A stretch of DNA of 59,446 nucleotides, filler included, from Basidioascus undulatus (Eukaryota), in NCBI GenBank assembly GCA_000826855.1. It is 3 parts of 3 records of this genome, joined end to end, with 100 filler letters (N's around TTAATTAATTAA, not from the genome) between each part and the next. Parts side by side here need not be neighbours in the genome. Positions count along the whole stretch, not along the records: positions 39,722 to 59,446 come from JTLS01000404.1; 2 more parts are not named here. One strand, 5' to 3'. The first letter of the stretch is position 1; every line of letters begins with the position of its first letter. The notes beneath the pieces were generated by a model. It was not told the origin of the DNA. It did no database searches and was given only the letters and a program-made list of their open reading frames with translations. Of this stretch, positions 54,537 through 56,010 are shown piece by piece. The translations under genes and the position numbers were made by a program.

Positions 54537-54991
54537 ATGTCTTCCAATGTCAAGGTGTTCGCCCTGCCGCGGCGCCTGTGTTCACGCGTGCTCTAACCTT
54601 CTCCTTCTGCTTCTTTCTATCTTCAGCGGCGACGAGGTGCGTTGATATTTTGAACACCTCCAGACTGCTCACCCAATTTCTTGGAAGCTCCGCTGACGTT
54701 TTTCGCATCCATGGTCCTTCTCAGGTCCAGTCCCCCCTCGGCAAGAACCTAGTCGTTGGCACCATCACCGTCGAAGAGACGCAGAAGTCCGGGAAGCCGG
54801 CGTTCGTGATCGAGACGACGGTCGGCAAGATCATCAGCAGGGTGAGTGCGGAGGGGGGGGGGTGACGCTCAGCGGCGAGTGCGCTGACTGTGGTCGTGTG
54901 CGGCAGGCCAAGAAGCACGGTGGGTGGATTGTTGTTTCGGGGCAAATGAGGGCTGAGAGGAGAGGGACGGGTAGTGGTCAAGGCGAAGTGA
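54537..54991 (+). CDS. Small 58-aa basic protein A (Tudor/SH3-like pattern), five exons
   Basis: Exons 54537-54556, 54627-54636, 54725-54841, 54907-54919 and 54975-54991, all with GT-AG introns, give MSSNVKVGDEVQSPLGKNLVVGTITVEETQKSGKPAFVIETTVGKIISRAKKHVVKAK*. Supported by alignment with paralogue B. Confidence 0.75.
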
Positions 54992-55515
54992 TTTATGGTC
55001 GGACGGGAGATGGGGGATGGAAGGGTAGGTGGGAAGGGGCGGGGAGATCTTCTTGATGGTGCTTACTTCTTGATATGGGCGATGCTTTCTTGAATAGTGG
55101 CGGTTTGGACTTACTTGGGGGTTTCTTGTTTGGGTCTGCGTTGACTGTAATCTGACGTCTACTGTCTACAGAGCACTTGCTTGTAGAAGCCAGAGGGTGG
55201 ACTGCTGTCGACTGGGAAAGGCAGCACTGCCCTTCATGGTGCTAAAACGCTCGTGAGCTGAGTTCTGAGGCAACTACTACTTGAAACTGTAGCATTGCAA
55301 TCCCGAGCTTTGATACATCACACCCCTTACGAGAGCCCAGTCGTGTTTCTTTTTGACCTTGCCTCGCACTCAGCCCCCTACTCGTACACGCAAGTCGAAG
55401 AATCACAGTCGTCTCGTTTTACAACACTCAGGCAGTAATACAAGCTCCCCTTCTCCCCTCAGTCTCAGCCGATTGTCGCCCAGGCTCTCCCACCGACCGT
55501 CCGACTGCACTTCCT

Positions 55516-56010
55516 CTACGCCCTCGTGACTGCACCGCCCCCACAAACGAATCCATCAGTGCCTCCACCATCTGGGAGTCCAAACTAAACACTCACCCGC
55601 ATTCTTGCCCTACCCCACCAGCGTCCCGGTGTTCAAGCATGTCAGCCGCCCGTTCGGGTTCGAGGACGAAGCGAGGGAGGAGGAAGAGGGGAACGACATA
55701 CGCGCTTGATCATCTTCCCCTTCTTCGTCTCGAGGAGCCAGCAGTACTCGCCCTTGGCGTTGCTGTCCCATTGCATCCCGTCAATAACCAGGGTTAGTCG
55801 TCAGCGGGAATGGAGAGGACGGGATGGGGGACGGGAACTCACACGTCCTGCCTGACGATCTTGGCCTCGCAGCGCGAGCCCGCGACCATGTAGTAGACGG
55901 TGTCGTTCCTGTCTACGCGTCAGTACTTCTCCCTCCCCCGAAAGAAAGAAAAAGGTGTGCGGGGGAGGTAAAAGAGAGATGTACGGTTTTAGCTCGATGT
56001 TGGAAGACAT
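55516..56010 (-). CDS. Small 59-aa basic protein B, paralogue of A, five exons
   Basis: Exons 56010-55985, 55908-55843, 55762-55702, 55609-55597 and 55529-55516, all with GT-AG introns, give MSSNIELKPNDTVYYMVAGSRCEAKIVRQDVNAKGEYCWLLETKKGKMIKRGKNAVTRA*. Confidence 0.75.

What the first reader, a model, noticed from the sequence alone, without database searches (positions are those of the whole stretch)
54537..56010. Hidden tail-to-tail pair of paralogous ~58-aa micro-exon genes with a Tudor/SH3-like pattern
Seen: two convergent five-exon genes that the ORF track does not assemble. Both begin ATGTCTTCCAA (MSSN). A = MSSNVKVGDEVQSPLGKNLVVGTITVEETQKSGKPAFVIETTVGKIISRAKKHVVKAK; B = MSSNIELKPNDTVYYMVAGSRCEAKIVRQDVNAKGEYCWLLETKKGKMIKRGKNAVTRA. 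They align without gaps from K-x-x-D-x-V to the end (shared K..D.V, I, G, ET..GK.I.R.K..V..A). Three intron positions match: phase 2 after K-x, phase 0 after R, and phase 1 after a 13-nt micro-exon. Each gene also has one private intron. Inference: an old duplication with both frames kept intact. The KxGDxV...GxI...(F/W)xxET..GK pattern suggests a small beta-barrel (Tudor/SH3/KOW, perhaps Hva1/DUF2945-like). The basic tail could bind nucleic acid, and the two could form a heterodimer. I recognise no named family. This is the best candidate for an undescribed system here.
Basis: partly seen in the sequence, partly recalled or inferred. Interest (0 to 1): 0.72.

Follow-up and report, generated by a model that had tools for sequence, protein, structure and literature searches.

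The report
Convergent pair of tiny paralogous genes
Two facing, intron-rich mini-genes that each encode a basic protein of about 58 residues look real and anciently duplicated, and they may be shortened relatives of the small Hva1/DUF2945 beta-barrel proteins, though this is not proven.

Summary
Splicing by coordinates gives two five-exon models: A on the + strand (54537-54991, 58 aa) and B on the - strand (56010-55516, 59 aa).

Four tests support real, long-maintained coding genes:
- A vs B scores 64, against 21.2 +/- 3.9 for shuffles (0 of 5000 reach it).
- Three intron positions coincide at a constant 6-nt offset, including a 13-nt micro-exon.
- GC3 is 0.90 and 0.93, and a branch-point-like motif lies in 8 of 8 introns.
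- Codon positions 1 and 2 are conserved while position 3, the introns and the flanks are at chance.

Expression is unverified because no RNA run was listed.

The A/B profile matches bacterial Hva1_TUDOR (PF11160) at hhalign P about 2e-4 (probability 46-49%). That beats 300 of 300 column shuffles and five decoy beta-barrel families. But single exons give no Pfam hit, local HMM scores are only 1-7 bits, and about 11 residues of the family's central hairpin are missing.

Verdict: a real paralogous micro-gene pair, possibly a truncated Hva1-like variant. Function is inferred only. Interest is modest.

The parts
54537..54556 (+). Gene A exon 1 (20 nt, ATG, MSSN..., ends in phase 2)
   Evidence: Donor GTTCGC is weak, but it is the only frame-keeping choice and has the same phase and position as in B. 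A at -3 before the ATG.
54557..54626 (+). Gene A intron 1 (70 nt)
   Evidence: GT..CAG; CTAAC 30 nt from the 3' end.
54627..54636 (+). Gene A exon 2 (10-nt micro-exon)
   Evidence: It completes the K-V-G-D-E motif and is followed by A's private intron (phase 0).
54637..54724 (+). Gene A intron 2 (88 nt, private to A)
   Evidence: GTGCGT..CAG; CTGAC 28 nt from the 3' end.
54725..54841 (+). Gene A exon 3 (117 nt, 39 aa, core of the protein)
   Evidence: GC by codon position 0.51/0.41/0.92. AlphaFold2 on the single sequence gives mean pLDDT 78.7 with two long beta strands. It lies inside a 141-aa stop-to-stop frame.
54842..54906 (+). Gene A intron 3 (65 nt, shared position, phase 0)
   Evidence: GTGAGT..CAG; CTGAC 19 nt from the 3' end.
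54907..54919 (+). Gene A exon 4 (13-nt micro-exon)
   Evidence: Same length, phase and place as exon 4 of B.
54920..54974 (+). Gene A intron 4 (55 nt, shared position, phase 1)
   Evidence: GTGGGT..TAG; CTGAG 18 nt from the 3' end.
54975..54991 (+). Gene A exon 5 (17 nt including TGA)
54992..55515 (.). 524-nt spacer between the two stop codons (presumed convergent 3' UTRs)
   Evidence: length. No Rfam family or tRNA found. The 3' flanks are not similar above chance (148 of 500 shuffles reach the score).
55516..55529 (-). Gene B exon 5 (14 nt including TAG)
55530..55596 (-). Gene B intron 4 (67 nt, shared position, phase 1)
   Evidence: GTGAGT..CAG; CTGAT 26 nt from the 3' end.
55597..55609 (-). 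Gene B exon 4 (13-nt micro-exon)
55610..55701 (-). Gene B intron 3 (92 nt, shared position, phase 0)
   Evidence: GTATGT..TAG; CTGAC 32 nt from the 3' end.
55702..55762 (-). Gene B exon 3 (61 nt)
   Evidence: GC3 1.0. It holds the E-T-x-x-G-K-x-I-x-R block shared with A. Inverted DNA repeat I1 links 54810-54836 with 55707-55733, 78% complementary.
55763..55842 (-). Gene B intron 2 (80 nt, private to B, phase 2)
   Evidence: GTGAGT..CAG; CTGAC and CTAAC 38 and 31 nt from the 3' end.
55843..55908 (-). Gene B exon 2 (66 nt)
   Evidence: GC3 1.0.
55909..55984 (-). Gene B intron 1 (76 nt, shared position, phase 2)
   Evidence: GTACAT..CAG; CTGAC 11 nt from the 3' end.
55985..56010 (-). Gene B exon 1 (26 nt, ATG, MSSN...)
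   Evidence: Inverted repeat I2 links 54536-54554 with 55993-56011, 84% complementary.

Best explanation
These are two real protein-coding genes. They arose by an old inverted duplication and now lie tail to tail, 524 nt apart. Each is spliced from five exons, including micro-exons of 10 and 13 nt. Each encodes a cytosolic (no hydrophobic N-terminus, by eye), lysine-rich, all-beta protein of about 6.2-6.7 kDa with pI about 9.6-9.9.

The most likely fold is a small SH3/Tudor-like beta sheet or barrel. It would be distantly related to the Hva1_TUDOR (DUF2945, PF11160) family but shortened by about 11 residues, so the family's central hairpin is missing.

The inferred action, by analogy only, is a binding module. 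Its concave beta surface and basic tail would hold a negatively charged partner. That partner could be a nucleotide cofactor, as proposed for Hva1 and NADPH, or a nucleic acid or a protein. The module might work as a homo- or heterodimer and so tune metabolism or stress physiology without catalysing anything.

Shown here: the gene models, the paralogy, the coding signature and selection on the protein. Inferred: expression, fold, family link, partner and dimerisation.
For: Gene reality:
- All 8 of 8 introns are GT..AG and 55-92 nt long.
- 8 of 8 carry a CT[AG]A[CTG] branch-like motif 11-38 nt from the acceptor. Seven are CTRAY, six of them including CTGAC. The background rate is 0.0024 CTRAY per base.
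- GC by codon position is 0.51/0.37/0.90 for A and 0.45/0.38/0.93 for B, against intron GC of 0.49-0.72. Neighbouring Pfam-supported coding pieces have GC3 of 0.85.

Paralogy and selection:
- The alignment score is 64 against 21.2 +/- 3.9 for shuffles, 0 of 5000.
- Three intron positions and phases are shared.
- Identity at codon positions 1/2/3 is 0.52/0.46/0.38 against shuffle means 0.33/0.27/0.45; 3, 8 and 4419 of 5000 shuffles reach these.
- Introns and flanks are at chance.

Fold and family:
- AlphaFold2 on the 39-aa exon gives pLDDT 78.7 and two long strands.
- hhalign of A+B against 133 bacterial Hva1_TUDOR sequences gives score 26.9, P 1.7e-4, probability 49%, over 43 columns. Against 253 sequences it gives 26.5, P 2.1e-4.
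- 0 of 300 column shuffles reach it (mean 9.9, max 17.2), and the reversed alignment scores 14.8.
- Five decoy small-barrel families score lower: KOW 15.8, DUF2158 15.2, CSD 15.2, CarD_TRCF_RID 14.6, PRC 7.4.
- A against the family HMM scores 6.9 bits, reached by 2 of 2000 shuffles.

Background from the literature:
- Hva1 is a 75-aa, mainly beta, Tudor-like protein with a crystal dimer and a proposed NADPH link (passages of PMC5008624).
- DUF2945 was renamed Hva1_TUDOR and placed in the Tudor clan (passage of PMC6324024).
Against: - No transcript evidence exists for any junction.
- The donors of intron 1 are weak in both genes (GTTCGC, GTACAT).
- Pfam finds nothing at E<=10 for the 39-aa exon of A or the 21- and 20-aa exons of B, and NCBIfam finds nothing either.
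- Local HMM scores are 5.0 and 6.9 bits for A and 0.9 and 1.8 bits for B. The family's curated cut-off is 24.1 bits.
- B alone against the family gives P 0.11. A+B against the WNWG-type subfamily alone gives P 0.022.
- The Trp that is invariant in the 13 and in the 85 aligned bacterial sequences is Ser in A and Tyr in B (alignment).
- phmmer of the exon against the PDB did not hit the Hva1 structure.
- phmmer against 1.84 billion representative proteins found only a spurious 2517-aa repeat protein.
- The ESM Atlas gave no hit of 0.9 or above and no informative family.
- The AlphaFold2 fragment is only a hairpin and cannot show a barrel.
Confidence: 0.5

Rival explanations
1. The two genes are real and paralogous but belong to a lineage-restricted (orphan) small-protein family. 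That family has no common descent with Hva1_TUDOR, and the likeness to it is only the generic pattern of short beta-rich proteins.
For: - No homologue of the 39-aa exon was found. The word-indexed search gave none, and 1.84 billion representatives gave only a spurious repeat protein.
- The metagenome scans and the prokaryote genome scan gave none.
- There are no Pfam or NCBIfam hits.
- B alone shows no signal to the family (P 0.11).
- hhalign probability is below 50%.
Against: - The hhalign score stands about 8 sd above column shuffles.
- It is 11 or more points above each of five decoy barrel families that share the K-x-G-D-x-V type start.
- The aligned region runs through 43 columns in the expected order of motifs (G-D-x-V, G-T-I, P-x-aromatic-x-I).
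- The homologue searches were limited to a 39-aa piece, so only close relatives could have passed.
Confidence: 0.33
2. One or both models are not functional genes. They could be chance assemblies of GT..AG sites around an open frame, or decaying pseudogene copies.
For: - No RNA holder was available, so no junction has been seen.
- The intron-1 donors are weak.
- No homologues were found.
Against: - The long exons are contiguous frames whose similarity does not depend on splice choice (tblastn of A finds B exon 3 and the reverse).
- GC3 is 0.90-1.0.
- Branch motifs lie in 8 of 8 introns.
- Both frames, both stop positions and three intron positions are intact although silent sites and introns are saturated.
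Confidence: 0.07
3. The proteins are small basic SH3-like chromatin or RNA binders. They would be functional analogues of 7-kDa DNA-binding proteins or KOW modules, not Hva1-like metabolic modulators.
For: - pI is 9.9 and 9.6, with 10 and 12 K+R against 5 and 6 D+E, at 6.2 and 6.7 kDa.
- The fragment is beta-rich.
- The codon bias suggests high expression.
- The comparison with Sso7d/Cren7-type proteins is recalled, not tested.
Against: - KOW scores only 15.8 over 14 columns, and CSD 15.2.
- No test against 7kD_DNA_binding was possible. The family rang only in a control genome that yields no locus.
- This rival concerns the partner rather than the fold, so it is compatible with an Hva1-like fold.
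Confidence: 0.1

Closest known systems
Hva1_TUDOR / DUF2945 (Pfam PF11160, Tudor clan CL0049); type protein Hva1 of Cryptococcus neoformans (crystal structure 4P5N)
   Same: - Both are very small, stand-alone, mainly beta, lysine-rich proteins.
- The order of motifs is the same: K-x-G-D-x-V, then G-x-I, then P-x-aromatic-x-I, then G/K.
- The profile-profile match has P about 2e-4 over 43 columns.
- The family occurs in fungi and bacteria (passages of PMC5008624 and PMC6324024).
   Different: - A and B are 58-59 aa, against 66-107 aa in the listed bacterial members (mostly 69-80) and 75 aa in Hva1.
- About 11 residues of the central hairpin are absent, and the invariant Trp is replaced.
- No Pfam hit was obtained for the exons.
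- There are four introns per gene, against two reported for HVA1.
- The genes are present as a convergent pair of diverged paralogues.
KOW / ribosomal protein L24-type SH3-like barrel (PF00467)
   Same: The N-terminal K-x-G-D-x-V strand pattern, and a small basic beta protein.
   Different: hhalign scores only 15.8 (P 0.015), and only over the first 14 columns. The KOW G-K-x-G motif is not present in A or B (by eye).
Other small bacterial beta-barrel modules tested as decoys: DUF2158 (PF09926), CSD (PF00313), CarD_TRCF_RID (PF02559), PRC (PF05239)
   Same: Size class and beta-rich nature.
   Different: hhalign scores are 15.2, 15.2, 14.6 and 7.4, with P 0.016-0.59. These lie at the upper edge of, or below, the column-shuffle range (max 17.2).

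Membership tests
Hva1_TUDOR (PF11160) | Score at or above the curated Pfam cut-off (24.1 bits, 59-position model) | tested here: inconclusive
   - Only contiguous exons could be handed to the Pfam scan. The 39-aa exon of A and the 21- and 20-aa exons of B gave 0 families at E<=10.
- The full spliced peptides were scored only against my own HMMs, built from bacterial members. A scored 5.0 and 6.9 bits and B 0.9 and 1.8 bits, far below 24.1.
- Those bacterial profiles found no PDB chain at all at E<=1 or E<=10. They therefore also missed the fungal Hva1 structure, so they are poor judges of fungal members. I did not check that 4P5N is in the copy searched.
Hva1_TUDOR (PF11160) | Conserved columns of the domain. 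In 13 bacterial members V4, W6, G15, G31, P43 and Y45 are invariant. | tested here: not met
   - In the hhalign alignments, A keeps V, the G before T-I, and P.
- A has F for Y and S for the invariant W. The hairpin G aligns only in one of the two alignments.
- B keeps V, and has Y for W, A for G and W for Y, and no P.
- The signature is therefore only partly present in A and mostly absent in B.
Hva1_TUDOR (PF11160) | Full domain length, including the central beta hairpin between the G-x-I strand and the P-x-Y-x-I strand | tested here: not met
   hhalign places gaps of 3 and 8 residues (11 in all) in A/B opposite this hairpin.
Hva1_TUDOR (PF11160) | Five-stranded Tudor-like barrel as in the Hva1 crystal structure (passages of PMC5008624) | not testable with these tools
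The 39-aa exon alone folds as two long strands at pLDDT 78.7. That is compatible with a barrel but does not show one.
Hva1_TUDOR (PF11160) | Significant and specific remote similarity by profile-profile comparison | tested here: met
   The score is 26.5-26.9 at P about 2e-4. 0 of 300 column shuffles reach it, and five decoy families score 15.8 or less. Probability is only 46-49%, so this is a lead and does not prove membership.
KOW (PF00467) | Match to the 32-position KOW motif | tested here: not met
   There is no Pfam hit for the exons. hhalign against 27 of the 30 loci fetched for KOW matches (mostly L24-type by size; L148, L150 and L157 left out) scores 15.8, P 0.015, over 14 columns.

The most novel reading that the evidence does not exclude
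A and B found an unrecognised minimal branch of the Tudor-clan Hva1 family. The branch would be about 58 aa with four strands and no central hairpin. Gene callers would miss it because the genes are split into micro-exons. The convergent pair would be kept because the two diverged subunits work as a heterodimer that binds a nucleotide cofactor or nucleic acid.
Probability: 0.15. Interest if true: 0.45.

Novelty: new variant of a known kind. Interest (0 to 1): 0.3.

Why it matters
If the models are right, this locus shows how micro-exon genes for very small proteins escape ORF-based and many automatic annotations. The longest coding piece is 39 codons, and two exons are only 10 and 13 nt.

It also shows that an internal comparison of two old paralogues can support such genes without transcript data. 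The comparison uses shared intron phases, conserved codon positions 1 and 2, and saturated position 3.

A shortened Hva1-like protein would widen a family whose only studied member affects metabolism and virulence in a pathogenic yeast, and whose molecular action is still unknown. Beyond that, the finding is an ordinary pair of small duplicated genes.

Tried and rejected
- RNA evidence: the look-up of sequencing runs on 54400-56200 listed no RNA holder ('none was listed'), so read laying could not be used.
- Whole genome: none is held.
- Earlier notes of this scan: nothing by place, sequence or words.
- Homologue searches, all limited to the 39-aa exon of A or to that exon padded into the intron to meet size limits:
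  - word-indexed search, none;
  - 1.84 billion representatives, one spurious 2517-aa cadherin-like repeat protein;
  - metagenome contigs, none in two scans;
  - prokaryote genome contigs, none.
- PDB phmmer gave only designed dTor repeat proteins, through summed weak repeats, which I rejected.
- ESM Atlas: best score 0.89 to unnamed bacterial clusters; the named-only search gave 0.80 or less. Nothing was usable.
- NCBIfam: none.
- Fungal Hva1 sequences: two profile searches returned only bacterial names among the named rows (about a quarter of the 120 listed each time). The comparison therefore rests on bacterial sequences.
- PDB searches with three bacterial profiles found no chain at all or only weak lectin and pyocin hits at E>0.4.
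- A third copy in the window: tblastn with both peptides found none (best non-self E 0.35-0.64, which were the reciprocal A/B exons and noise).
- Conserved non-coding blocks: a 20-nt match just after both stop codons (I3) is not above chance (148 of 500 shuffles).
- MAFFT of the separate exons misaligned B exon 2, so that alignment was not used.
- The Sso7d-type family could not be fetched for a comparison.
- Rfam and tRNA scans of the window found none.
- I ran no fold search on the 39-aa hairpin model, because a two-strand fragment cannot identify a fold.
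Full report
WHAT IS THERE

I read 54000-56600 and joined the proposed exons by coordinate.
- Gene A lies on the + strand. Its exons are 54537-54556, 54627-54636, 54725-54841, 54907-54919 and 54975-54991. 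That gives 177 nt, or 58 codons plus TGA.
- Gene B lies on the - strand. Its exons are 56010-55985, 55908-55843, 55762-55702, 55609-55597 and 55529-55516. That gives 180 nt, or 59 codons plus TAG.
- All eight introns begin GT and end AG and are 55-92 nt long.
- The stop codons face each other across 524 nt.
- Each ATG is the first in its frame and has A at -3.

The window is GC-rich, about 59%. That it is fungal, probably basidiomycete, is my inference from the short introns and the CTGAC-type branch motifs. No call names the organism, and no whole genome is held.

IS IT MORE THAN CHANCE?

Four independent lines say yes.

1. The two peptides are similar.
   - The BLOSUM62 local score is 64, against a shuffle mean of 21.2 (sd 3.9, max 47). 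0 of 5000 shuffles reach it.
   - Without the shared MSSN start the score is 55, again 0 of 5000.
   - The gapless part has 14 identities in 52 columns (my count).
   - Most of this similarity lies in contiguous frames, A exon 3 against B exons 2 and 3. It therefore does not depend on how splice sites were chosen. tblastn of each peptide against the window finds the other gene's exon as its best or joint-best non-self hit, and finds no third copy.

2. Intron positions coincide.
   - Introns fall at CDS positions 20, 30, 147 and 160 in A and at 26, 92, 153 and 166 in B.
   - Three of them share phase (2, 0, 1) and a constant 6-nt offset. Both genes have a 13-nt fourth exon.

3. Splice and coding signals are present.
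   - Every intron has a CT[AG]A[CTG] motif 11-38 nt before the acceptor. Seven of eight are CTRAY, and CTGAC occurs in six.
   - CTRAY occurs at 0.0024 per base in the window.
   - GC by codon position is 0.51/0.37/0.90 in A and 0.45/0.38/0.93 in B. The introns have 0.49-0.72 GC.
   - GC3 is 0.92-1.0 in the three long exons. That is higher than the 0.85 of two neighbouring Pfam-supported coding pieces.
   - Only 197 of 118,660 39-codon windows in the six frames have GC3 >= 0.90 together with GC2 <= 0.40. A exon 3, at GC2 0.41, just misses that particular filter, while the B exons meet it.

4. The divergence pattern points to selection on the protein.
   - Between A and B, codon positions 1 and 2 are 52% and 46% identical, against 33% and 27% for codon shuffles. 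3 and 8 of 5000 shuffles reach these values.
   - Position 3 is 38% identical against 45% expected (4419 of 5000 shuffles reach it).
   - Homologous introns and both flanks show no similarity above shuffles.
   - Silent sites are therefore saturated, yet both copies keep their frame, stop position, splice sites and amino-acid pattern. That is what long-term selection on both proteins predicts.

What is missing is any transcript. No RNA run was listed for the stretch. The donors of intron 1 are weak in both genes.

WHAT ARE THE PROTEINS?

They are 6.2 and 6.7 kDa, with pI 9.9 and 9.6. By eye they have no hydrophobic N-terminus.

- Pfam and NCBIfam give nothing for these exons.
- phmmer of the 39-aa exon against the PDB gives only summed weak hits to designed repeat proteins.
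- The word-indexed protein search gives nothing.
- HMMER over 1.84 billion representatives gives one spurious repeat protein.
- The two metagenome scans and the prokaryote scan give nothing.
- The ESM Atlas gives no usable lead.

With a 39-residue query only close relatives could pass. These blanks therefore do not show that the family is confined to this genome.

AlphaFold2 on the exon alone gives two long beta strands at mean pLDDT 78.7.

I fetched family members without typing any sequence.
- A scan for PF11160 in 301 genomes of one bacterial class found 13 matches in 10 genomes.
- Two profile searches then gave 240 more proteins. Every one that carried a name was bacterial.

In scripts I compared these with the spliced peptides.
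- HMMs built from the family score A at 5.0 and 6.9 bits, reached by 20 and 2 of 2000 shuffles.
- They score B at 0.9 and 1.8 bits, reached by 178 and 89 of 2000 shuffles.
- All of these are far below the curated 24.1 bits.
- Profile-profile comparison is more favourable. A+B against 133 family sequences scores 26.9 (P 1.7e-4, probability 49%, 43 columns). Against 253 sequences it scores 26.5 (P 2.1e-4).

Controls:
- 300 column-shuffled A/B alignments score 9.9 +/- 2.1 (max 17.2), and the reversed alignment scores 14.8.
- Five other small beta-barrel families were fetched the same way. KOW/L24 (27 of 30 loci used) scores 15.8, DUF2158 (2 loci) 15.2, CSD (15 loci) 15.2, CarD_TRCF_RID (15 loci) 14.6 and PRC (15 loci) 7.4.

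The alignment runs K-V-G-D-x-V onto the family's first strand, G-T-I onto G-T-I, and K-P-A-F-V-I onto the P-x-Y-x-I strand. About 11 residues of the central hairpin are deleted.

Points against the link:
- A alone gives P 6.6e-4, but B alone gives only 0.11.
- The WNWG-type subfamily alone gives 0.022.
- The invariant Trp is not kept.

One calibration matters. Profiles built from 13, 3 and 85 sequences drawn from the fetched loci and the two profile searches found no PDB chain of the family at all. This is so although the Hva1 paper deposited 4P5N. The bacterial sequences I could reach are therefore poor proxies for fungal members, and my weak HMM scores are not strong evidence against a link.

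I put the Hva1-like relationship at roughly even odds and do not file the genes as members.

HOW IT PROBABLY WORKS

Hva1 is a 75-aa protein with a five-strand twisted sheet plus one helix. It forms an extensive two-fold contact in the crystal. Its closest structural neighbours are Tudor domains and type II dihydrofolate reductase. It has a proposed, unproven link to NADPH levels (passages of PMC5008624). Pfam renamed DUF2945 after it and placed it in the Tudor clan (passage of PMC6324024).

By analogy I infer that A and B are non-catalytic binding modules. Their beta surface and lysine-rich tail would hold a negatively charged ligand or partner, perhaps as dimers. The strong codon bias suggests high expression.

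None of this is shown here. The convergent layout may be nothing more than the trace of an inverted duplication. Whether the 3' ends overlap is unknown.

SURROUNDINGS

- Upstream on the + strand lies a thymidylate-kinase-like frame (51667-52305, E 5.6e-6, just under the Pfam cut-off).
- Beyond B on the - strand lies a Peptidase_M28 frame (56982-57440, E 4.3e-7).
- Neither suggests a functional link.
- No Rfam family or tRNA lies in the window.

VERDICT

The fold and family guess is a reasonable lead, with specific but sub-threshold support. The heterodimer and nucleic-acid ideas are untested.

This is most likely a new, shortened variant of a known kind of small Tudor/SH3-like protein. Its value is mainly for annotation, not as a new system.

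Noticed in passing
window 54536-54547 and 55999-56011 (minus strand): The base before the ATG and the first 11 coding bases are identical in the two genes, although silent sites elsewhere are saturated (I2, 71). This may reflect constraint on translation start or on the N-terminus (MSSN), or a short gene-conversion tract.
   Followed up: partly
window 56087-56119: A perfect 12-nt tandem repeat (GGTGGCGATGGC, 2.6 copies) lies about 80 nt upstream of the ATG of gene B. Further imperfect 8-9-nt G-rich repeats lie at 56174-56205.
   Followed up: no
window 54998-55017 and 55486-55505: A 20-nt, 80% matching block sits 7-26 nt and 11-30 nt after the two stop codons (I3). A local alignment of the 3' flanks is not above chance (148 of 500 shuffles).
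   Followed up: yes
window 51667-52305 (+) and 56982-57440 (-): The neighbouring frames are a thymidylate-kinase-like frame (26.6 bits, cut-off 27) and a Peptidase_M28 frame (30.3 bits, cut-off 21.3). Five other long frames tested had no Pfam hit.
   Followed up: no
window 54853-54862: Intron 3 of gene A holds a run of about ten G, and the intron is 72% GC. Such a run could cause sequencing or assembly length errors. It lies outside the coding exons.
   Followed up: no
PDB searches with bacterial DUF2945 profiles (A1, A2, A4): Profiles of 13, 3 and 85 sequences (from the PF11160 genome scan and the two profile searches; named rows all bacterial) found no PDB chain at E<=1 or E<=10. The Hva1 paper reports entry 4P5N. 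Either the fungal type protein is very far from the bacterial branch or the entry is not in the copy. I did not check which.
   Followed up: partly
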